From NCBI GenBank assembly GCA_905178155.1, contig CAJINV010000001.1, positions 9,941,865-10,005,864 of the forward strand: a stretch of DNA of 64,000 nucleotides, given 5' to 3'. The notes beneath the pieces were generated by a model, which had not been told where the DNA came from, did not search any database, and saw nothing but the letters and a program-made list of their open reading frames with translations. Positions within the stretch are counted from its first letter, which is position 1, and the number at the start of each line of letters is the position of its first letter. Below are positions 13,450 through 64,000 of the stretch, in pieces. The position numbers and the translations under genes were made by a program. This DNA comes from Amoebophrya sp. A120 (taxonomy: Eukaryota > Protista > Dinoflagellata).

Positions 13450-13829
13450 TTCCTAACCAACTCCGCGCTAGAACCGAATCTTGAGTTTGTGGTGCAAGAG
13501 CGCTGACACTGAAGGGAGATCTTCTATTGCAAGACTCTATCGCAAACGATAACGATTCTTGAGAAATAACAACCATGGGAAAAGTTTTTTCGCGCTTGTT
13601 GTAGCCCCTTTTACTGCCGACTCACATCGCGATCCTCGCCGTCAGCCAGTTGAAAACGATCATCGCTAAAAGGCAACCCAGTTCAGAGGATCACGAGCTC
13701 CCTCGGTCTTCATCCGCTGGGCATTGCATTTTTTTGACGGCAAGATTAATCGCAGGGCGTGTTACAGCATCTGGGTACGCTAGGATCATTTTGACATTTG
13801 CTAGATCGATTCACACCGTTCCTCGGAAA

Positions 13830-14726
13830 ATGCCCTCCACAAGTCTGCTCCTCCTCAGCGCAGCTGCACTACTGCACAGGGCAGCAGCAATAAGAGTTCG
13901 TGCGCCCTCGGGAATAGCCGTGCCTGCAAGCGGCACTTGCGCCAATACATTCGGTCCGATCTCTGTTGCGGAAGAAGACATTGACTACCCCTACTACAAA
14001 GAGAGCACCACCTACACCTGGAGCGCTTTACCTCCGCCTGACGCAATACAGCTGGATGGAAATGGCAACCCGCTGCCGGTCAAGCTGCACCTTTTCACAC
14101 AGTTCGAAAACACGAGGCGACTGTGGCCTGATCTCTACTTCACGCCCGCCGGTACGGAGTCGCCGGTAGCCACGGTTCCGGCACGGTTGAGCATCGGTTC
14201 CGCGGAGCTCCTCGAAGCTGACAGCTCGACTGGCACGAGCGGGATTTTCGGTGACACGGACCACGCCGATTCCGAATGGGCCGAGCAAGGATGGCAACAA
14301 AGAGAAACGTGGCCGAAGGAAAAAGTAGACTTCAAGCTCCAGTACAAACCGCGGAAGTCGCTAAGTTTCGTACCGAAATCGGCGATAATAGAGGGTAGGC
14401 TCGAAACGGAGAACCTGAAACCTACCTTCACCTTTGAATTCGTCGAGCGAGAGTCGTCGCCCGTAACTGGCGATGGGTGGCTCGTCTACAAGCAAGTGAT
14501 TCGCTATTTTAGGAGTCGCTTTTTGTTTCAACACGACCAGAACTACCCAATGTGGTTAGTGTCTGCCAAGCCGAACTATCTGGGCGAGTTGACCTTTGTG
14601 TACGTCGAGAAACCTCCAAAATGCAGCGTCACACACATGATCAAGATGACCCTGGGCAAAGCAGAGATGGAACCGACACCGCTCCCGGCCCTGCTTTTAT
14701 CCGCGCGGAATAGGAGCGCGATTTGA
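13830..14726 (+). CDS. Hypothetical secreted protein, copy 1
   Basis: 299-codon ORF starting MPSTSLLLLSAAALLHRAAA (signal-peptide-like). No recognised domain. Confidence 0.7.
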   Translation: MPSTSLLLLSAAALLHRAAAIRVRAPSGIAVPASGTCANTFGPISVAEEDIDYPYYKESTTYTWSALPPPDAIQLDGNGNPLPVKLHLFTQFENTRRLWPDLYFTPAGTESPVATVPARLSIGSAELLEADSSTGTSGIFGDTDHADSEWAEQGWQQRETWPKEKVDFKLQYKPRKSLSFVPKSAIIEGRLETENLKPTFTFEFVERESSPVTGDGWLVYKQVIRYFRSRFLFQHDQNYPMWLVSAKPNYLGELTFVYVEKPPKCSVTHMIKMTLGKAEMEPTPLPALLLSARNRSAI

Positions 14727-15693
14727 TTACGTTGCCTCATCACGTGTTGTTTTCACGCCGGAGCAGGACCGAAAAGTTTCATTTTATTCGAATGAATCAA
14801 TATTTTTCATCCGCAACTTCGGTTGTATGATAATGCACAGTCACCGATGGATTTTTCGGTGCATCTGGTTTTAATATTACCTCTGCGAAAGTGAAACCCC
14901 AGATCTGCTTCGGGCAGATGTCTGCCAAGCAAAAAGTGTTTTACATAGGTATGAGATTGTGTGATAGTACACTTGTCAGGAACTCTAGAGGCGCTTCCAA
15001 AAAATTTCCGTAGCGGTCTCAGCAGGGTTTTGCGATTTAATACGAAGACGGAAATTATCCATGAGTACGACTACTATAACGGCATGAGGCCATGCGCGGC
15101 TCTTACGCAAGATATACGTTGTTCGGTCGATCGCACTTGTTGAAGCTCGTATCGCTCGTTCGAAGTTCTCGCTTTCGAACCGACATAAAAATGCGTTGAA
15201 ACGAACACGACGAATCGGAGAGAAAATATCAAAAGTTTGCTTTGCTTCGTCGTGGACACGAGCGGTTTACTGTCGGTTGTTGTATGTAGTTGCACGATAG
15301 TACCGCTCTCCGATCTACTTCTCTTCACTGTTTCCTGCTGGATCCAAGAAGATTCATCTCGACGTGAGCAGGTTTTTGTTCACAGCATTGATTTTTTTGG
15401 GATCCTTGATGTCATCTCTTAGCAAGTCGATAGAACAAGGTGGTACTCGGGTTTGATGCAAAAATGATACCAGCAGAAGTGCCTTCCCGCAACACACGAC
15501 GACTAATCCTCGAGCGCTGCTAACCATGCCCGTAGGCCTCGGGAACGGTCCGCCGCATCGGTTGATTCTGGCCACCGCGAATGGCCGGGCGGAGGACCAG
15601 AATTACGGAAGACGGAACTCAGGACCGACTACCACATCGGCGCAAAGCAACAACTACGTACCCGCGTGTGGAACTTCGACGATGGGCGGATCC

Positions 15694-17212
15694 CGGCCGG
15701 CTCCTCCTCCGCCGCGATCCTTGCAGGCGCCGCGAGTAGTACCGACGACGCTGCAACAGCGGCGCCGGGCCTTGCCGCGCCCGACGGACATGACGTGGTG
15801 CGGGAACAACAAGAGGACTTCCTGCCGTTGATTGACCTTAGCGCCGTGCTCGCGACTGCGGCGCAGAAGGAAGACGCGACCGACGACGCCCTCGCCAAGC
15901 ACAACGAGGCCGTGCGGCAGATGAAGCGCGCGATGGAGACGGTCGGCTTTTGCCGCGTTACCGGCTACCAGTACACCCCCGCCCTCTGGGACCGCATGTG
16001 GGCCTTGGGCAAGCAGATGTTCCGATGGGAAGACAAAAACGAGTTCCTGACGGCGAAGGATTCTAACGCGGGCTTCCCCTACGGACTCGGGACGATGAAA
16101 AAGGACGAATCGAACCAGACCTTTGACTACTTCTCGGACGGGCAGATCGACAAACCGCGTTTGCTCCCGACGGGACAGGATTTAAACGTCGACGAGGGAG
16201 AGAGTCGGCGGATGTGGAAGGACGCCAAGGAAACGGATTTCCCCCACCGACACGTGGACGGGGAAAGATACGACGCGAAGCGGTCGGGGCGAGCGCTGTT
16301 GAGCTGCTGCGGGAGGCGGAAGACGCGAGAAAGCGTAGATCGTTGTGGCAGTCTTGTAGGAATTCAATTTTTCGATTACGTTGCGCTCGCAGGCCTTGTT
16401 TGGCTGCGCATAGAAGTTCGTTGGCCGTGCAGCAATGTTCTCGTCTCTCATTTCCACAAGCCACAAAACCACATCAACAGGCCGGCGCAGACGAGGACGA
16501 CCATAGCTTGTACAAGACTGTCGACCTGAACCAGTACTACAACGAGTTTGCGAAGATCGCTTTCACCGTCGTCGCGCTGCTCCGGGACAGCCTAGAGGTC
16601 CCGTCCGAGTTAGACTTGGAAGAAATGGAAAGGACCCACTGGTCCGTGATGCGGTTTCTCGACTACCCCTCGCTGCCCGTGGAAAAACTGCCGACCAGCC
16701 CGGAGCTGGACCACAAACTGCGGCCGCGGATTCCGCCGCACGAAGACTTCGGGCTGATCACCATCCTACGGCAGGACGAGAACGGTGGCCTGCAAGTTTT
16801 GAACAAGGACGAGACCGTGAAAAAGAACCTCCCGGAGAAGGACTGGAAACGACACGGCGTGTACGAAACGATCGCCGGGAAGGCGAAGGCAAAATTGCCG
16901 GACCGCAGTGGAACAGCAGGTGCGAGCAATGTACAAGGTGCTACGGCTGAAGAGCCCCTGCAGGAGCCGTTGATTGTGAACATCGGCCGCGTCTGGGATT
17001 CCTACACCAACGACAAAGTGCGAGCGACTACGCACAAAGTCGAGCCGGTGATTGTGGACGGGCGGACGACGGCACGCAATTCGCACGCGTTCTTTTTGAA
17101 CCCGAACTGGGTCTCGTGCTTCTTCGGGCCTTTGCCGCAGTACGGAGGAGACAAGAAAGATTGGATCAATTTCGGCATGCACATAAACAACTGCATCAAG
17201 CCTCGGTATTAA
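15694..17212 (+). pseudogene. 5'-truncated copy 2 of the 2OG-Fe(II) oxygenase
   Basis: Identical to 11650-13168 but lacks the start codon and signal peptide. It is fused out of frame to the first 56 codons of the MICAL-like gene. Confidence 0.7.
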
Positions 17213-17873
17213 AGAGGGAGATAGAAAGATGATAGAAAATAGAAAAGTAGAAAGGATCGCGCCGCCTTTTGTCGTTTTGGAAATTTAGTACCTGCTCAGT
17301 TATACCAAAGTAATTTGTCGCCTTTCTTTATACAGCACTTTGACGCTTATTTTTCCGACAAATTCAAGCGCGCAGGGGCGTTACGTTTTACCACGAATAT
17401 AAAGAATCCTGTTGATTTGACACCTAACGAAATAGAGTTGGAACCTAACGAAGAGAGATGAAACCTAACGAACAGTAGAGATGGAACCAAACCTTCCTAA
17501 CCAACTCCGCGCTAGAACCGAATCTTGAGTTTGTGGTGCAAGAGCGCTGACACTGAAGGGAGATCTTCTATTGCAAGACTCTATCGCAAACGATAACGAT
17601 TCTTGAGAAATAACAACCATGGGAAAAGTTTTTTCGCGCTTGTTGTAGCCCCTTTTACTGCCGACTCACATCGCGATCCTCGCCGTCAGCCAGTTGAAAA
17701 CGATCATCGCTAAAAGGCAACCCAGTTCAGAGGATCACGAGCTCCCTCGGTCTTCATCCGCTGGGCATTGCATTTTTTTGACGGCAAGATTAATCGCAGG
17801 GCGTGTTACAGCATCTGGGTACGCTAGGATCATTTTGACATTTGCTAGATCGATTCACACCGTTCCTCGGAAA

Positions 17874-18770
17874 ATGCCCTCCACAAGTCTGCTCCTCCTC
17901 AGCGCAGCTGCACTACTGCACAGGGCAGCAGCAATAAGAGTTCGTGCGCCCTCGGGAATAGCCGTGCCTGCAAGCGGCACTTGCGCCAATACATTCGGTC
18001 CGATCTCTGTTGCGGAAGAAGACATTGACTACCCCTACTACAAAGAGAGCACCACCTACACCTGGAGCGCTTTACCTCCGCCTGACGCAATACAGCTGGA
18101 TGGAAATGGCAACCCGCTGCCGGTCAAGCTGCACCTTTTCACACAGTTCGAAAACACGAGGCGACTGTGGCCTGATCTCTACTTCACGCCCGCCGGTACG
18201 GAGTCGCCGGTAGCCACGGTTCCGGCACGGTTGAGCATCGGTTCCGCGGAGCTCCTCGAAGCTGACAGCTCGACTGGCACGAGCGGGATTTTCGGTGACA
18301 CGGACCACGCCGATTCCGAATGGGCCGAGCAAGGATGGCAACAAAGAGAAACGTGGCCGAAGGAAAAAGTAGACTTCAAGCTCCAGTACAAACCGCGGAA
18401 GTCGCTAAGTTTCGTACCGAAATCGGCGATAATAGAGGGTAGGCTCGAAACGGAGAACCTGAAACCTACCTTCACCTTTGAATTCGTCGAGCGAGAGTCG
18501 TCGCCCGTAACTGGCGATGGGTGGCTCGTCTACAAGCAAGTGATTCGCTATTTTAGGAGTCGCTTTTTGTTTCAACACGACCAGAACTACCCAATGTGGT
18601 TAGTGTCTGCCAAGCCGAACTATCTGGGCGAGTTGACCTTTGTGTACGTCGAGAAACCTCCAAAATGCAGCGTCACACACATGATCAAGATGACCCTGGG
18701 CAAAGCAGAGATGGAACCGACACCGCTCCCGGCCCTGCTTTTATCCGCGCGGAATAGGAGCGCGATTTGA
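17874..18770 (+). CDS. Hypothetical secreted protein, copy 2
   Basis: Identical to 13830-14726. Confidence 0.68.
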   Translation: MPSTSLLLLSAAALLHRAAAIRVRAPSGIAVPASGTCANTFGPISVAEEDIDYPYYKESTTYTWSALPPPDAIQLDGNGNPLPVKLHLFTQFENTRRLWPDLYFTPAGTESPVATVPARLSIGSAELLEADSSTGTSGIFGDTDHADSEWAEQGWQQRETWPKEKVDFKLQYKPRKSLSFVPKSAIIEGRLETENLKPTFTFEFVERESSPVTGDGWLVYKQVIRYFRSRFLFQHDQNYPMWLVSAKPNYLGELTFVYVEKPPKCSVTHMIKMTLGKAEMEPTPLPALLLSARNRSAI

Positions 18771-19569
18771 TTACGTTGCCTCATCACGTGTTGTTTTCAC
18801 GCCGGAGCAGGACCGAAAAGTTTCATTTTATTCGAATGAATCAATATTTTTCATCCGCAACTTCGGTTGTATGATAATGCACAGTCACCGATGGATTTTT
18901 CGGTGCATCTGGTTTTAATATTACCTCTGCGAAAGTGAAACCCCAGATCTGCTTCGGGCAGATGTCTGCCAAGCAAAAAGTGTTTTACATAGGTATGAGA
19001 TTGTGTGATAGTACACTTGTCAGGAACTCTAGAGGCGCTTCCAAAAAATTTCCGTAGCGGTCTCAGCAGGGTTTTGCGATTTAATACGAAGACGGAAATT
19101 ATCCATGAGTACGACTACTATAACGGCATGAGGCCATGCGCGGCTCTTACGCAAGATATACGTTGTTCGGTCGATCGCACTTGTTGAAGCTCGTATCGCT
19201 CGTTCGAAGTTCTCGCTTTCGAACCGACATAAAAATGCGTTGAAACGAACACGACGAATCGGAGAGAAAATATCAAAAGTTTGCTTTGCTTCGTCGTGGA
19301 CACGAGCGGTTTACTGTCGGTTGTTGTATGTAGTTGCACGATAGTACCGCTCTCCGATCTACTTCTCTTCACTGTTTCCTGCTGGATCCAAGAAGATTCA
19401 TCTCGACGTGAGCAGGTTTTTGTTCACAGCATTGATTTTTTTGGGATCCTTGATGTCATCTCTTAGCAAGTCGATAGAACAAGGTGGTACTCGGGTTTGA
19501 TGCAAAAATGATACCAGCAGAAGTGCCTTCCCGCAACACACGACGACTAATCCTCGAGCGCTGCTAACC

Positions 19570-22500
19570 ATGCCCGTAGGCCTCGGGAACGGTCCGCCGC
19601 ATCGGTTGATTCTGGCCACCGCGAATGGCCGGGCGGAGGACCAGAATTACGGAAGACGGAACTCAGGACCGACTACCACATCGGCGCAAAGCAACAACTA
19701 CGTACCCGCGTGTGGAACTTCGACGATGGGCGGATCCTCCAGTAGCACCGCCTTCGCCCCACCGGAGCGTGCGGTTGGCGCCGCCGCAGCTCAGGATCGG
19801 CCGTACAACAACCAACATGCGCGTAACGTTCCGAGTCCGATGGAGGGCGCGCTATTTTCCAAAATCAATTCCTCGTCCCGGGTTCAGTTGCAGAAAACGG
19901 CTTCAACATCAGGCTACGTGAAGCAGGCTGCACACAAACTTCAGGGAGCCCGACCACCCGAACCGCAATTGCAGCATCTTGTGCACCAGCGCGGCAGCCC
20001 CACGGGAGGAGAACAGCAGAACAATTGGAGCACGAGCGCGCGCGCGTTCGTCGGCTTGCGGTCACCGATAGGGAGTCCCTTGAGTGACAACGGGGCAGCA
20101 GCAGGCGGACCCTCTTTACAGGAGCTCGATGTGACGCAACTTCATGTGGGGGACTACAACGGCGGGCCAGTAGTAGACACCACCGGACCACCAATGCGCG
20201 CCGGCAACTTCGCGGCGCCGGCAAGAAGAAATCGACAGGACGAGGTTCACAAACAGCACGAACCTGCGCCCCAACCCAGCCCGCGCACGGAGCTGCGCAT
20301 GCTGCACGTCAGCGAGCCGAAGAGGGAAGTAGAGCAGCAAAATTTTTATGAAATCGCGAAGACGCCGGAGATGACCTCCCAGGCTACATCGGCGAAGATC
20401 CACGAGCAAACCCGAGTGCAGGTGTCCCCCACGTCGGGCGGCTCGCTGTTCGAGCTGCGCGGATCGGCGCCCGAGGTCCCTCCGCGATCGTATCGACACC
20501 GAAGTTCGCTGCAGGCGCTGGCCGAGGGAAAGTTGGTGTCGCAGTCGAAGAGCCGTTGGGCGACGCGGGCGACGACGCCGCGGCAGACCTCCACCGTTGC
20601 GAGCTCGACCGAGTTTGACGAGCAGGAGCCGATCGTGCCAACGGCGGAGGACCCAATAGTGTCCGGCGGTACTCCGGCCGCCCACGGCCGCGGGGAGGAC
20701 CGAATCCGGGCGGGGAAAAAGGGCACAGCTAGTTCATCTTCGTCAACCACCTTCAGGCGCCTACCGGTAGACCACGGCGCTCCAGCCTCGCAGCTGCGAG
20801 CGGAGAAGAATGTTGCTGAAAGGGGCGAGCAGGTTAAACCGGTGCGGCGCCGCGGAGACGACGCGCGGGAGCGCGAAAGTAGTACCCGGGCTGCTAGAGG
20901 TGATCTCTTTCCACCGCGCGCGGAGTTTGGCAGCGCTCAACATGTTTCTCGCCGCGCAGAGCACGACGGAGGGAGTTGCGGTTCCGGGAAGAAGGACCAT
21001 CATCAAAGCCGCATGGCATCACGTGAAGCTAGCGCGTCATCGAGGCCCGTGTCGAAGCAAAGCGCCCCCTCTCGCGCAGTGCAGCAGGAGACTGAGAGTC
21101 ACAAACTCAAGCAGGCGCAACTGGAGCGGCGTTCGCGAAACTTATCGACGAAAAACTTACTCAACAATCACCGTGAGGACAGTCGAAGCAAATTCGATGG
21201 AGCACACCGCACCGCGGTGGAAATAGGACCTACGGCGAGTGGCAAGTATCAGGCACAGCAGCAGGCCACGCCGTTGACGCCGGGGCCTGCTAGTCGCGAT
21301 GTGAACGCTTCTGGACTGAAGGATCCCCACAGCAGTCGGAAAAAGCTGGATCCGGAGTCGGTGCGGAAACTCCTTCTGCGCGGTGAGGATACATGGCGGG
21401 GCAAGCCACCCAGCGGGGGAAAACTGCCACTAGCAGCAGACCAGATGAATACTTCGACGGGCGGCAAAATGAACAGGAGCGCAAGAGACATTACACCGGC
21501 GCGGATTGTACACCAGACTCCATTGTCCTCCTCGCGCTTTCTCGACCATCACAAGCTTAAATTCGACCACGCCACGCCCGTAGTGACTGCGCGGGCAGTA
21601 GAAGCAGTTGCGCACAACACGGATAAAAATTGTGCAAAAGTAGACCACAATTCAACATCTTCCCGTTCGCGTGCGCAGACTGAAGCCAGCAGTGTGCGCC
21701 TGCACCAAAGCCGCGTTTCCCTAGAGAAAGAGTCCGGGCCAGCGTCGCAGAGCATCTCCCGGAAAAACGCGTTGGCAGCGGAGGAGAGGCGCAAAGAGCG
21801 GCGCAAGCCAAACTGGTGGCTCAACCGCCGACACCAATCTTCTTCTTCGCCGGAAAAAAAAGAAGGCGGGGGGCGTGCGGCGAAAAAATCCAATCTGCAA
21901 GATTCTCCACCGTTGCTTACTGACAAAGAGAAGGAAAAGCTAAAACGGCTCGCGGTAGCGCCGCCGAGCAAAAGCGAAATGCCGCCGAAGTCGCATAATT
22001 CTGCAGAAGCAACTCTAAATGTGGCGGGGCGCGACGTTACGACAAGAGCAGATCGTGGCGCTGGAAGTAGTTGTAGCAGGCAGCACTACAACTCGAGCAA
22101 AGTAGAGCCTCCTGGTCGGGGTCAGCCTCAGCCCGACCCGAGCGCGACGCGAAGTACGAAACATCCACCCCCTGCTCGCGCTCCTGAGGAAAAGAAGTCA
22201 GCTTCAGCTACTGTGCATCACGACCATGCGACGTCGAGCACAGACACTGTGTCTCGCAAACCCACCGGACTAACAGGACATCAGCGAAAATTTTCCTCGC
22301 CACACGGAACCAAACGCGAAGGATCAGCCACACGCCCAGCGAGTTCGATTCAGCATCAATCCACCGCATCTTCGACCGCGTCTGCTACGACCAACGCTGT
22401 ACCGCGCACGTCGCCCGGGCCAAGCACGGCCGTCATGCAACAAAAATCCAGCAAATTTGCCGTGGACTCGAAGAAGCGGCGGTCAATGCGGCGCAGTATG

Positions 22501-39967: not shown

Positions 39968-42651
39968 ATGCGGGCATTCTGCTACACGGTAGCCTTCGCT
40001 GCGACTTCCGCTGACGGCCGGCCTAGTCACGCGGTCGTTCCGCCGTTGCCAAATGACGAGTTGACAAGCGGATTTAACAGCGCAGGAGCGCTGGTGAAAG
40101 ATCCGATAAGGAGTTCCTCCTCCTCCAGCAGTAGCTCTTCAAAACACGAAAGCGACAACTTCGTCGAGCGGGTGCGTAAGCGGGCAGAGGCGATAAACCT
40201 CCTGCGATATGGACAAAAATCGCTAGCGTCACCAGATCCGTTTATCGACAGGTAAGACGGAAATTATCAACAATTGTTACCACAGATGGACGGAAATGTG
40301 AAAAGCACGGCATAGCAGTGAAGAATGTTAAAGGAACCCACGTGCTGCGCCTGTGTCTGTGCAGGCTTCTGCCTTAGAATGAAAGGGCACCACTTGCAAA
40401 GAAAATGAAACCAACAACAATCAAACTACAGCCGGTCGCTGCAGGGAGTGCAATCGCAGTATTGTTTGATAACGGCGAATGTATGACGGCGATAAAATAT
40501 TCATTTCAAAAATATTCACGGAGCCAAAAAAAAAATTTTTCGGCCAGTGGCCGCCCAGCCGGACCGGAGCGCGCCACGCCATGCGTGAGGCATTGCAGAG
40601 CGCTAACGCGCCTGCTATGCCCCGACGCAGGTACTGCCTGGAAGTCACTTGCTGGGCCCAATCGGTCGATGGCGCTCGAGAGTCAGATCCTTCAAACAAA
40701 TAGGGGACGGCCTGCGTGCCGGCGACAGGCGCAGCCATCTTCCACAAGTGGCAGCTTGCCTAGCATTCAGGCGGCAGACCACGGTCTCAAAGCCTTGAAG
40801 AAGCTGCCATGGTGCGCTGCCTTGCCCCTGCAGGCGTTGCTCGAAACCGACTGGGCTCGAGCACATCCTGGTAGGTGGCGGCCATTAGAGCAGTTGCTCT
40901 AGACGGCCGCACTTTGCCGAGGCGCAAACCCCTGCAGGAGACGGGGTCGCCTGGCCTTTACCAGGATACTTCTGCTGGCCAAGCCTATAGAAAAGCTCGG
41001 CGACTTTGTGTGCTGCCAAAAGCCGCAAAGGTTGGAAGCAGAAAAGAAGCACTTTTTTGACGTCCTCAGAGGAGGTATGAATATTTTTACTTTTTGGGCT
41101 GGTCTGAATGGAGCATAGCAGTGGGATGCGCAAAAATATTCACCTCCCCAAAAAACGCCTCTTTTTCCCAGAAAGTGCGCACTTTTTTGACATTTTTCGC
41201 TGTCGGAAATTGCGCAGATGAATATTGGATAAATCAAGTGTGAGTAGCTTCCGCTAATAAAAACGGAAACGCAGTCTCGTCGTGATTCGAAAATGAATAT
41301 CCAGAAACAAAGCGGGCGAGAGGTGTCCGACTTGGTGCAAAACAGCCATTGCCGGCGCTGTGGCGCATTTCAGTTCAACCTTGGCCTTTACAGGAGTAGC
41401 GCTTGCGTCTGGGCGAAGTGGACCTTTCCAGATTCTGCAAAAAAAGTCGCGGGGTCTCCGCAAAGCGAGGGCGCCCAACCACCTAGCAAGCAATCCGCAA
41501 GAGCGCGCGCCACATCATTTTCTTTAGAGGTGAACGAAGGAGCACACTTGAGGCGTAGGCCTTGATATATCTCGGCCCTGTAAGTCGCCAAACGCGTTTC
41601 GTGCGTTTTCTGGGCCAGGATTTCCACATGAAGCGCCTCAGCGAAGCTCTCGCGCGCGCATGTCGCGGAGTCTTTTTCCTAGGCGTTCAATAATTGCGCA
41701 AAAAAAAATTTTTTTCGGCTCTGTGAATATTTTTGAAGTGAATACTTTCTCACTCTCATAGAATGGGCTGACGGATCATCTGCGGAACTGCCTGCAAACG
41801 TGCCACGTACTGGACAACACCATCGAGCCGCGGTTTACCCAGTTTGAATCGTATAGAAGTACACGTGGTTGTTTGTCAATCACATGAATCCAAGATATGC
41901 AGGTAGCGCGTGATCGTACTAGCAGTAGCTGGCGCGAGATCGCGGAATCAAAAAGGTCGTAATCATGTAGTTGTCGCGACGAATTTTATTTCGGATGCCA
42001 CTCAGGTTCTGCGTCGAAGCTGCGGGGGACGTGATGTGGCCAGATGTGTGCTACAATTTCATGGAGTGCGTGTTGGGGTGCAAAATCACGAAGGAGATTA
42101 CCAAGGACAAGTCGATTGAAATGGTAGAGAATGTGCTGGTTTATCATTCGCTCAGAATTGATGTCATGCGCATGCTGGTATGTTTTCGTGATTAGAAAGT
42201 GTGTGTGAAGTAGTGGTGGTGCACTACAATGCCAATCAAAATTGTCAATGCAGATCAAGACCGCCGATCGGCAGGACATGTTCGAAAAAATTGACCCGGG
42301 CAATGTGGAAGCGGAACAGCGGTGCGACATGGAGAAATGCCGGTCCTATTGCGTGCGACAGCGATTGGGCACCTGTCACGAGATCGGGTACAGATACGCT
42401 TTTACGTCTGAAGTAGAACCAACTTGGGTTTTATTGCGTTTCGTACTAATCAGCCGGGCCGGAGACGCATGAGCGTTCTGCCAGTAAGATAGCTGGCGCT
42501 TGAATTTTTGTACAGGTATATCTCCGCCTGTGAAGCCGCCCAGCGCGGGCAGTATCTTCCCTGCGATGTGGATTGCAGCTCGGCGCAGTCGCTGCAAGCG
42601 GGGTTTGCGACGCTTGCTGCCACGGTGCTGCTGTACCTGCTTTTCATCTAA
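39968..42651 (+). CDS. 14-Cys putative GPI-anchored surface protein, paralog 2 (six exons)
   Basis: The spliced model gives QYCLITAN|NGLTDHLRNCLQTCH...FES|FCVEAAGDVMWPDVCYNFMECVLGC...CDMEKCRSYC...CHEIG|YISACE...CDVDCS plus a hydrophobic tail. Introns include 40252-40431 and 40481-41761. Confidence 0.8.
40482..41760. mobile_element. Non-autonomous TIR DNA transposon acting as an intron (introner), 1279 bp
   Basis: ~60-bp imperfect TIRs (49/60 match by eye; tatgacggcgataaaatattc... / ...gaatactttctcactctcata), 5-bp TSD GAATG at 40477-40481 and 41761-41765, inserted in coding sequence. Confidence 0.9.
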
Positions 42652-46079: not shown

Positions 46080-47819
<1,740 letters not shown>

Positions 47820-60800: not shown

Positions 60801-62097
60801 CAGCGACGCGTCTGCGATGTGTCACCTGGTCGCACACGAAGTCGGGGGCTACGGTAGTAGTTCTCCGTGGAGCAATCCGCTACGACCGACTGCGCAGGAT
60901 GCGGAGTCTCCGAGTTCCCCGTCGCCAAAAAGTTCTTCAGAAGCGCTGGACACGACCTGGTCCGAGATTGGGGAACGACAGGCGAAGCTGCACGGCTTGC
61001 GGTCAGTGTTTACCAGGCGGGTCCGGGTGGAGTACGAAAAGAAAACGGGAACAGAGCAGCTACTCGTGGATTACGCGGGCCAATGGAGCGAAAGTCCGAC
61101 GAGTGCGGGTCGTGACAAAGCAGGCGCGGGTGCTAGTAGTGCAACACCTGCGGGGGGACGAGGAGTAGTTTCCTCATCGTCAACGCCAACTGCAGAAAAA
61201 ACGATCGCGGCACGCTCGTCGAAGCTCTCTTCGCTTCCTGCGGTGTTCAGTAGCCAAGGAGAAAGTAGAGATAAAAACCTCGACCGTCTTTCGATAGGCG
61301 CAGACAGCAGAAGCCTCGGGCTCGGGTCAGACGCGCAGAAATCTGCGGTGGATCACAAAACTTCTACGTCACGACCGTCAGTCGACGAGAAACTCGACCA
61401 GCAGAAAAATCCGCCGCAGAAAACAGGTTCCTTCCACTACACGTTTTCGCAAGATGGCGAGTTCGGCGTCGAAGCTACTGCGCAGAACGGCAACGACGAA
61501 ACTGACGATGTCAACATTTACTGGTGGGAGGGGCCTGGGGAGATGAAAGAGATACCTGTTTCCAGCCAGGAAGTCCTCGAATCGATGAAGGGGTTATGGA
61601 AGCAGAACAACCCTCGGGCGGTCTTTTCCCTCGCAACTCTAGTACAGCGCCTGCGCGCGATACAAGAGAGAAAACGGGATGAGGCGCTGGAACAGAAACG
61701 GATAAAAGAGCTGCTAGCCACGGTTTCTACTTCGAAGTCGGACAGAGCAGAGCAACACCAACAGCCCCAGGATAGTAGCGTAGCAACAGTGCTGTCGGCA
61801 ACGAGTACAGTAGCTCCCGGTGCTCCTCCTCCCGATAGCAAGGAGTCCGCGAAAAATCTTGCAGCACCGAGGGTGCCAGCGCAGAGTCGACGTCCGCAGA
61901 ATCCTAGAGAACGCGTTCCAAGTGACAACAAGGTTGATAGGACTCGAAGAATACGAAAAGAAGCGACGCCTCCTCCGCCGGGGCGTACGAACAGAGTACC
62001 GGAGCCAAGTCCGAGCTCCCTTTCGACCGGCAGTAGCGGCATGCAGCCCGGTTTCGCCACGAATTCTTTCGAGAATTGGAAAAACCGGGGGAGATAG
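57808..62097 (+). CDS. Multi-exon extracellular protein with two homologous Cys-rich domains and Thr-rich linkers
   Basis: Two modules TTTT..TICxG...DxVNC/TDCVN...CxCELCKWP...C...VEGxxCGxxC, linked by plausible GT-AG introns. Long Ser-rich C-terminal exon 59985-62097. The 5' exon junction near 58410-58440 is uncertain. Confidence 0.65.
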
Positions 62098-63057
62098 CAG
62101 TGTTTGCGTGGTGTCATCAACCAGCCCTACTCATGGGTTTGAAACAAATGAACCGACTTGTATCTCTTTAGCTACCTTCTTTTGTTTGCGAAAAGACTTT
62201 TGGAAGTTTTACTACCCCGTTGTAACAAAGCAATCTTGAACTTGGCTTAGCATCTTGAAAACTAATTACTTTGCAATCTAGATATCGCAGAACTTTGGAT
62301 AAACTCCATCAGGTCAACGTCAACGTTAAGAATTCGGAATAAACTTTTCATTAGCAGCTGCAAGCATGTTGCATTCGCTGAGTGATTGATTAACCCATTG
62401 CTGAAGAACTCTTTTTGCAGACTCCAACGCACCCAGCTTTTTTTCAAAATAGGCACGACAATTCACTCCGTTCGAGTCTCGACCGCAAGGCAAGGATAGG
62501 AAACGCTGAACCCTATAAAAATAGCTCTCTGTTCGCTCTCCTGTGCATCATCTCATGAACTTTTTCAGAATAGTAGCTTACTTCGTGTTGGCGGATCGTC
62601 GCATCGTCGTTGAAGTCGAATAGCGGTTCGTTACAAAGTCCGTATGCAAAAATATCGTTGCACTGTCGTGGACTGGGTCGTCATTTCGTATCACGTCATC
62701 GTCATCAATCTTGATACAACTCAATCGGTCTGATCTTGTCTTAGAAAATCTTGTTCATGCATATCGTTCGTTGTAGCCTATTTTTCCTGTTCTAGTAGAA
62801 GATGAAGAAAAGCAAAAGATAAATCATCTACTGTGCCATTTGTCATCCCGTGTCTTGTAGTGCTTGTTTTTTTTTAGCAACAGTGAGTAAGTTAACATTC
62901 CAATGAGTGGGCATCTCTAGTAGCCAAAAAAATTCAAGACTTTTGCAAGGTGCTTGAGGCTACCGTGCCTTGAGCACAGCCTTTCTATGGCAACAACGTG
63001 ACAAGGTAGTTCACACTATTACTGGTACTATCCGTACTACTAACTATCAGAAAGAAA

Positions 63058-63801
63058 ATGGTAAACACGATTTCGGTTGCGGCCGCCGAATCGGCTGCGG
63101 ACGCTGGTGCTCCCGTTCTTACTAGTTCCCAGCGAGGTCCGGCGCGCCGGTCGCCGTCGACGCTGCACTTTCTGCGCAATATGTTTGACGAGGAAGAGGA
63201 GGTGATCCAGAAGCCGATCGTGATCAACCCAGTGTGCCGGGTGCTGCCCCCGCCGGACTACTCGCGTTTCGAGTTCTTGGCGCTGCCGAACCAGAAGGCT
63301 CGTTTGCCCATTTTCCCCCCGAAGCACCGCGAGCTGCCGTTGTCCTTTTTTCGCAACGTTTTCGCGGTTTTGTCGCTTCGTTTCGGGGACCGCAAGACCG
63401 GCGAGATTGCCGCGTCCCTCTTCGAGCGCGCGATGCGTCGCATTTGCCGCATCATCGGCGATCCGAAGCGCAAGATCGACACGGCGCGGTACGTATCAAA
63501 TGCAAAAATGTCTGGGTCTGGAAGAATGCTGCAAGTTTGTCATGCTTGTCTCACATGACTCTCGAATTTGTCATGCACATTACCCAAGATCCCCATTTTT
63601 CTGTCATGCAGAAACGCAGTTTGTAATGCAGAGTAGGCAACACCTAGAAGCTCAGAAACTTGTCGTGCTGAGCCAGCACTTGTGGCCTCCTCATGATACG
63701 CCAGCCAGCATCACAAGTTTCCAGACCCAGACACTTTTGCATTTGATAGTACGACGTCGATGGTTCCGGCGCGGTGGGCTGGTGGGAGTTTGTGTCCTGC
63801 T
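63058..63801 (+). CDS. EF-hand-containing protein, 5' part (continues beyond window)
   Basis: Exon 63058-63492 spliced to 63750-63801 gives IDTARY|YDVDGSGAVGWWEFVSC, with a canonical 12-residue EF loop DVDGSGAVGWWE. Confidence 0.75.
63494..63748. mobile_element. MITE-like introner (255 bp)
   Basis: 30-bp TIRs matching 29/30 (tatcaaatgcaaaa[a/g]tgtctgggtctggaa), 5-bp TSD GTACG at 63489-63493 and 63749-63753. Confidence 0.92.
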
Positions 63802-63802
63802 G

Positions 63803-64000
63803 TATCAATTGTAAAAATGTCTGGGTCTGGAAGATTGCAACTTGTCATGCTAAATCTGCAGCATGCAAAAATCTGTGTTGCATGATTACCAAAAGTCGTC
63901 CAGTTTTGACCAAGTCGGGAGGTAGTTTGTCATGCAGGATAGGCATTAGAAAGGTCTCGCAGAATCTGTCATGCTAGGTCCTGCATTCCAGACCTCATGG
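63803..64000. mobile_element. Second copy of the same MITE-like introner family, truncated by window end
   Basis: Starts tatcaattgtaaaaatgtctgggtctggaa (28/30 to the previous copy), has the same internal gtcatgc motifs, and the probable start of the right TIR (ttccagacc) appears at ~63987. Confidence 0.8.

What the first reader, a model, noticed from the sequence alone, without database searches (positions are those of the whole stretch)
63489..63753. 255-bp MITE-like introner splitting the entry helix of an EF-hand
Seen: 29/30-bp TIRs and TSD GTACG. Intron 63493-63749 (GTATCA...GATAG) yields TARY-YDVDGSGAVGWWEF, a canonical EF-hand loop that the ORF track misses. The alternative GT at 63489 would frameshift. 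Near-perfect TIRs suggest a recent insertion (inference).
Basis: partly seen in the sequence, partly recalled or inferred. Interest (0 to 1): 0.78.

Follow-up and report, generated by a model that had tools for sequence, protein, structure and literature searches.

The report
Known Amoebophrya introner skips GT-AG
A 255-base mobile element sits inside a predicted potassium-channel gene of the marine parasite Amoebophrya A120 and is missing from transcript assemblies together with one 5-base flanking repeat, at ends that are not the usual GT-AG; it is an already published kind of intron, likely cut out at positions set by its own hairpin.

Summary
The DNA observation holds: element 63494-63748, arms 29/30 complementary, exact 5-bp repeat GTACG on both sides. 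The proposed splice does not. In 4 of 4 RNA-like runs laid (2 samples, 1 study) the contigs skip 260 nt (63488->63749, slidable by 5), i.e. element plus one repeat copy, not the 257-nt GT-AG intron, which would add a Tyr. None of the six possible cut registers is GT-AG. The public Amoebophrya sp. A120 protein (948 aa, Kv-like channel with C2 domain) has the same single-Tyr junction, and 0 of 55 aligned proteins has two Tyr before the loop. The ends match the published A120 introner motif (PMC7789003). A second copy starts at 63803 and is also skipped. The EF-hand is supported by fold and motif, not by Pfam; the 'entry helix' is one turn. Recent insertion is not shown. The scan has reported this system in many other windows of this genome. 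Verdict: already known. The one useful detail is that an in-frame GT-AG pair 3 nt short of the real junction is not the form assembled.

The parts
63058..63488 (+). First coding exon of a Kv-like channel gene (residues 1-144); may extend to 63493 depending on the cut register
   Evidence: Translation is 100% identical to the start of the 948-aa A120 protein P0122; covered without differences by RNA-like contigs
63489..63493 (+). Left copy of the 5-bp target-site duplication GTACG
63494..63748 (.). 255-bp introner element, 45% GC against 62-65% in the flanking exons; no host-frame read-through (stop 22 codons in)
   Evidence: high-copy family in run X1
63494..63523 (+). Left terminal inverted repeat, TAT + 7 nt + AAA start
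63719..63748 (-). Right terminal inverted repeat, 29/30 complementary to the left
63749..63753 (+). Right copy of the target-site duplication GTACG
63489..63748 (+). Interval missing from transcripts, 260 nt, leftmost placement; slides up to 63494-63753 (ends GT..TA, TA..AG, AC..GT, CG..TA, GT..AC, TA..CG)
   Evidence: joint 63488->63749 in 4 of 4 runs; registers enumerated
63493..63749 (+).
63749..63802 (+). Second exon (54 nt at widest match); codons 63753-63788 encode the 12-residue EF-hand-type loop D146-E157
   Evidence: pieces
63803..64000 (.). Second copy of the same element family, cut by the window's end; also absent from transcripts
   Evidence: 92% match over 37 nt to the first copy's left end; contigs of 4 of 4 runs leave the window after 63802 and continue in the frame of P0122

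Best explanation
This is a copy of the published Amoebrophrya-type introner of strain A120 in a predicted voltage-gated potassium-channel gene: it likely inserted as a non-autonomous DNA transposon, it is missing from the transcript together with exactly one 5-bp repeat copy, and it is likely cut out at fixed distances from its paired terminal repeats rather than at GT-AG signals. Steps. (1) Shown: TIR + 5-bp duplication anatomy, 260-nt removal, restored 948-aa frame. (2) Inferred: insertion by a transposase that makes a 5-nt staggered cut with no target preference. (3) Inferred: in the pre-mRNA the two arms pair into a ~30-bp stem that brings the exons together, in either orientation of the element. 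(4) Inferred: the splicing machine cuts inside the two repeat copies at the same offset, so the message equals the pre-insertion sequence whichever of six registers is used. Earlier scan notes put the cut 1 base before and 4 after the element (63493-63752, GT..AC here); that fits this joint but I could not establish it. (5) Untested: the catalyst; a spliceosome with relaxed end recognition is my first choice (nearly all spliceosomal proteins present, U1 snRNA not detected, PMC7789003 section 10). About 0.9 for steps 1-2, 0.7 for a hairpin-set cut, 0.55 for the spliceosome.
For: Joint skips 260 nt in X3, X4, X5, X7 (X7 has only 24 letters on its short side, the other three 54). Public A120 model and a 51%-identical homologue align without a gap at the junction. 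In 55 aligned proteins the fifth residue before the loop Asp is D/N/E in 48, and 0 have Tyr-Tyr. Family in a related organism: 106 of 123 copies have an exact 5-bp repeat, 11 more have one mismatch; no G..G or C..C excess (10 vs 9.9 and 8 vs 8.2 expected), and precise removal can be GT-AG in only 12 of 106; 17 of 18 confidently coding flank pairs stay in frame after removing element+5, 1 had discordant strands (this cannot separate +5 from +2); at L092 element+5 gives a gap-free match to an A120 protein; orientation against the predicted coding strand 15 same, 17 opposite, 10 unclear of 42. Hairpin z -7.28. End motif, repeat length and size match PMC7789003 sections 10-11.
Against: The joint comes from assembled contigs of 2 samples in 1 study whose RNA nature is a guess by the tool; contigs drop rare forms, so minor use of the AG at 63749 is not excluded. 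The one raw-read RNA run laid (X21) has no depth on the exons. The cut register cannot be read at this locus. My one informative imperfect repeat (L092, a related organism, no RNA) leans against -1/+4: the A120 orthologue has Lys, which registers 0-3 give, while -1/+4 gives Arg. Family statistics are from a relative (83% protein identity at the one exon tested), with strands predicted by a codon model. The decoy AG lies inside the predicted stem, so its neglect may be local occlusion.
Confidence: 0.8

Rival explanations
1. One reading: an ordinary GT-AG intron 63493-63749 built from one base of each repeat copy, leaving one extra Tyr.
For: GT and AG are present and the frame is kept; introners that add residues are described in Aureococcus (PMC9860276, passage).
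Against: 0 of 4 runs show a 257-nt joint, 4 of 4 show 260 nt; public model has one Tyr; 0 of 55 aligned proteins have Tyr-Tyr there; only 4 of 42 strand-assigned family copies have the G..G repeat this needs.
Confidence: 0.03
2. Same element and same product, but removal is non-spliceosomal: a structure-guided endonuclease and ligase cut at the foot of the stem, as proposed for euglenid nonconventional introns.
For: No GT-AG in any register; both orientations occur; U1 snRNA not detected in A120; euglenid introns with paired ends are removed by unknown machinery.
Against: 83 of 89 spliceosomal proteins and four snRNAs are reported and 35% of A120 introns are GT-AG; no candidate enzyme was looked for here.
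Confidence: 0.25
3. The 260-nt joint is a reverse-transcriptase template switch across a strong hairpin between short direct repeats, and the RNA is not really spliced (artefact class recalled, not from a call).
For: The anatomy is the one that favours such jumps: -109 kcal/mol hairpin between 5-nt repeats; all evidence here is cDNA-based.
Against: The unspliced RNA stops 22 codons into the element, which would truncate a conserved 948-aa channel; parts of the interior have zero depth in all 4 runs; both elements of the gene are skipped.
Confidence: 0.05
4. The joined form is DNA: an empty-site allele or strain, or excision from the genome of expressing cells, rather than splicing.
For: Element+5 removal is identical to the empty site; the runs are only guessed to be RNA; the tool did not give the joined form in other runs.
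Against: X3 and X5 have no depth over the intergenic stretch 62469-62870 that X1 covers; X1's 15,928-nt contig runs from the flank 24 bases into the element without differences; the joined contigs (3039 and 3439 nt) are about the length of a spliced message for 948 aa and show no other difference from the window.
Confidence: 0.04

Closest known systems
Introner elements among the non-canonical introns of Amoebophrya sp. A120 (Farhat et al. 2021, PMC7789003; read: abstract, sections 10, 11, 12, 16, 32, passages, supplement part 3 of 5 and passages; figures not held)
   Same: Same organism by protein identity; ends TAT + 7 nt + AAA; direct repeat within the stated 3-5 nt; 260 nt against a stated mean of 240; non-GT-AG ends, GT-AC being the first listed A120 motif in Table S4; predicted hairpin.
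   Different: The arms here pair over 30 nt against the 8-20 nt motifs described; the text read does not state a fixed element+5 rule, a cut register or orientation independence (figures S19-S25 unseen may).
TIR/TSD introners of Micromonas, Aureococcus, Symbiodinium and others (PMC9860276 and PMC11282704, passages only)
   Same: Non-autonomous TIR elements with target-site duplication that become introns on insertion.
   Different: Those carry or co-opt GT/GC and AG sites; here no register is GT-AG and the repeat shows no co-option bias.
Euglenid nonconventional introns (PMC12501133 abstract, introduction and headings; PMC11282704 passage)
   Same: Non-GT-AG ends, paired terminal sequences, short repeats at the junctions, spacing between pairing motif and exon boundary matters.
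   Different: Different motif (CAG/CTG type) and lineage; no sequence relationship was tested.
Kv-type channels; EF-hand pairs of S100/calbindin/calmodulin type (host protein)
   Same: Ion_trans match E 2e-37, Foldseek to Kv4/Kv1/Kv3 E 5e-12; N-terminal domain's best structural matches are EF-hand proteins, Z 7.5, rmsd 2.4 over 65 residues.
   Different: EF-hand pair and C2 domain are in the same chain as the pore; first hand degenerate, second with a one-turn entering helix; calcium binding untested.

Membership tests
Amoebophrya A120 introner elements | Lies in an A120 gene | tested here: met
   145 of 145 residues identical to P0122, named Amoebophrya sp. A120 by its source
Amoebophrya A120 introner elements | Removed from RNA with non-GT-AG ends | tested here: met
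   260-nt joint in 4 of 4 runs, contigs only; no register GT-AG
Amoebophrya A120 introner elements | Terminal inverted repeats starting TAT + 7 nt + AAA | tested here: met
   Both ends match; motif from PMC7789003 section 11
Amoebophrya A120 introner elements | 3-5 nt direct repeat at the boundaries | tested here: met
   GTACG on both sides
Amoebophrya A120 introner elements | Repeated family | tested here: met
   Second copy at 63803; 13,415 contigs of X1 laid on 62000-64000, summed depth ~1.5 million at the arms against 42 on the flank, not a copy number
MITE (non-autonomous TIR transposon) | Short, TIRs, uniform target-site duplication, no transposase | tested here: met
   255 bp, longest stop-free frame 85 codons; 106 of 123 relatives with exact 5-bp repeat
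MITE (non-autonomous TIR transposon) | A cognate autonomous element, or shown mobility (presence/absence) | not tested
   No whole genome held; an earlier unreviewed note names a candidate (e1-10589626), not checked
Canonical U2-type GT-AG intron | GT donor and AG acceptor used | tested here: not met
EF-hand | 12-residue loop pattern | tested here: met
   D146-F158 and 43 of 55 aligned rows match the loop pattern (pattern recalled)
EF-hand | Helix-loop-helix pair fold | tested here: met
   Model pLDDT 91; best matches are EF-hand proteins but Z 7.5 is moderate, none at 8 or more; Foldseek best E 0.086
EF-hand | Pfam EF-hand match | tested here: inconclusive
   None for P0122 or P0123; EF-hand_1 in 8 of 55 members at E <= 0.01, positions not shown
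EF-hand | Calcium binding | not testable with these tools
   needs assay

The most novel reading that the evidence does not exclude
This locus is a natural decoy experiment: a harmless in-frame GT-AG pair is on offer and the cell passes over it, and the family works in either orientation. Amoebophrya A120 would then run a second splicing code that measures from an RNA stem and ignores splice-site letters, letting any 5-bp-duplicating transposon land in exons without changing the message.
Probability: 0.55. Interest if true: 0.55.

Novelty: already known. Interest (0 to 1): 0.2.

Why it matters
As a single element it is ordinary for this genome: tens of thousands of such introns are reported (PMC7789003) and the public gene model already removes this one. 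It matters in two small ways. It warns that GT-AG-guided annotation gives a wrong protein here. And it is a good reporter for the open question of how these introns are cut, since canonical splicing (257 nt) and precise removal (260 nt) are both in frame and differ by one codon.

Tried and rejected
No whole genome was held, so no genome-wide count or empty-site search. First lay was swamped by family copies; its loose end after 63802 in X5 was a mixed consensus and was superseded. Longest-open-frame test on 60 family copies did not separate removal lengths (26-30 of 60 open for each); replaced by a codon model, which left 18 of 99 usable. Beta-tubulin search pointed to dinoflagellates (94% identity) but gave no species. 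Nearest family copies are about 90% identical, but they come from a related organism, so this is no age estimate. Register test: GT-AG options fall 6 at -1/+4, 2 each at three other registers against 3.7, 3.7, 0.8, 0.8 expected - uninformative; 1 of 12 imperfect repeats was followed up. Sequence look-up in earlier findings returned nothing. PDB sequence search gave EF-hand proteins only at E 0.076 or worse. Paper searches listed no paper that, in the parts read, states the cut register or the catalyst for A120; Roy et al. 2023 was seen only as a reference and a preprint listing, and the figures of PMC7789003 are not held.

Full report
Observation. It is 45% GC between exons of 62-65% and folds as a long hairpin (-109.2 kcal/mol, z -7.28, 0 of 200 shuffles). 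A scan of the whole window for TAT..ATA-bounded elements with at least 12 of 15 paired ends gave 8 candidates, of which only this one has a 5-bp flanking repeat. A second copy begins at 63803 and runs off the window.

What the transcripts show. Of 23 runs listed I laid 6. X1 behaves as DNA: one 15,928-nt contig covers 62000-63517 without differences, running into the element, and 13,415 contigs match the stretch, nearly all depth lying on the two elements. X3 and X5 have no depth over the intergenic 62469-62870, as RNA would. On 63000-63806 at 99% likeness, X3, X4, X5 and X7 (2 samples, 1 study) each have one contig that joins 63488 to 63749, skipping 260 nt with 5 letters fitting either side; no 257-nt joint is listed. 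The only other joint listed is a 182-nt skip within the element in one X5 contig, likely another copy. So element plus one repeat copy is removed. The six equivalent placements end GT..TA, TA..AG, AC..GT, CG..TA, GT..AC and TA..CG; none is GT-AG. All four contigs leave the window after 63802 and continue in the channel frame, so the second copy is removed too. Limits: these are contigs, which drop rare forms; the raw-read run X21 did not cover the exons.

Host gene. The first exon's 145 residues are identical to the start of P0122, a 948-aa protein of Amoebophrya sp. A120, with Ion_trans, Ion_trans_2 and C2 matches and a Kv-like fold. It has one Tyr at the junction, a homologue at 51% identity aligns there without a gap, and in 55 aligned proteins (P0122 and 54 picked, mostly full-length, from 85 hits) none has two Tyr before the loop while 48 have D, N or E five residues before it. 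The model shows helix 95-109, helix 119-133, a one-turn helix 142-144, the loop, and helix 155-165: an EF-hand pair. The isolated domain (pLDDT 91) best matches EF-hand proteins at Z up to 7.5, a moderate score; Foldseek gave nothing under E 0.001; Pfam finds no EF-hand in P0122 but EF-hand_1 in 8 of 55 members. Calcium binding is inferred.

Family. A pattern scan (23 of 64 parts of the collection) gave 135 loci holding 123 distinct complete copies, median 262 bp. The 80 rows printed share one assembly prefix; the one exon tested is 83% identical to its best A120 protein, so these are from a related organism. 106 of 123 have an exact 5-bp repeat (0.1% in shuffled pairs), 11 more have one mismatch. 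All 123 have the TAT-N7-AAA motif at one end at least, 110 at both. 17 of 18 confidently coding flank pairs stay in frame after removing element+5; orientation against the predicted coding strand is 15 same, 17 opposite, 10 unclear. At L092, element+5 gives a gap-free match to an A120 protein.

Mechanism. Insertion by a transposase leaving 5-bp duplications is inferred from the uniform repeat length. Removal that needs no particular flanking letters and works in both orientations points to the paired arms as the signal; the duplication makes any same-offset pair of cuts restore the original message. I could not confirm it: this locus is uninformative, the count by register is flat, and L092 leans the other way, weakly. 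In the predicted fold the decoy AG is inside the stem, which extends into the palindromic part of the repeat, a local reason for it to be passed over. The catalyst is untested; a relaxed spliceosome is my first choice, an endonuclease-ligase route the second. Template switching and DNA-level loss fit the joint but not the conserved gene and the coverage pattern.

Comparison. PMC7789003 reports that about 65% of A120 introns are non-canonical, mean 240 nt, with 3-5 nt direct repeats and inverted repeats starting TAT, seven less conserved bases, then AAA; 29,850 repeated introns in 1954 families; U1 snRNA not detected. This element meets each feature that I could test. PMC12130899 attributes A120 introners to several transposon classes (passages); PMC11453091 restates the figures (passages). 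The scan's own look-ups returned 22 findings by words and 225 in this genome, so the system has been found before on other DNA.

Verdict. Novelty: already known. Interest 0.2. The boldest reading left open is a hairpin-measured, letter-blind splicing code for which this locus is a ready-made decoy test (probability 0.55, interest 0.55).

Noticed in passing
window 40482-41760: 1279-bp stretch starting TAT and ending ATA, 59-nt arms 83% complementary, flanked by an exact 5-bp repeat GAATG: same architecture, different arms, apparently between genes; longest stop-free frame overlapping it 174 codons, not searched against families.
   Followed up: partly
window 63058-64000 (P0122 and homologues P0123-P0207): A family of Kv-like channels with an N-terminal EF-hand pair and C2 domain in one chain (C2 in 41 of 55 members); possibly calcium-modulated; mostly unnamed proteins.
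   Followed up: partly
L001-L135: The same arm sequence bounds 123 copies in a related organism (83% protein identity at one exon), although PMC7789003 calls the families strain-specific for A25 versus A120.
   Followed up: partly
L026:571-1051, L027:1315-1945, L135:301-699, L053:707-1030: Longer family copies (324-631 bp) with the same arms and exact 5-bp repeats; extra internal sequence not examined.
   Followed up: no
window 63534-63974: A 12-nt internal motif recurs six times across the two copies; candidate transposase-binding repeat (inference).
   Followed up: no
window 13605-18770: Two 373-codon frames 4044 bp apart and identical inverted-repeat pairs at the same offset suggest a tandem duplication.
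   Followed up: no
window 19487-20419: 933-bp stretch with 11 of 12 paired ends and a 5-bp repeat AGGTG, overlapping the start of a long open frame; may be chance.
   Followed up: no
window 1-63400: No other copy of this family was found in the first 63 kb, which holds long uninterrupted frames such as beta-tubulin at 46349-47710; the copies cluster in the last gene.
   Followed up: no
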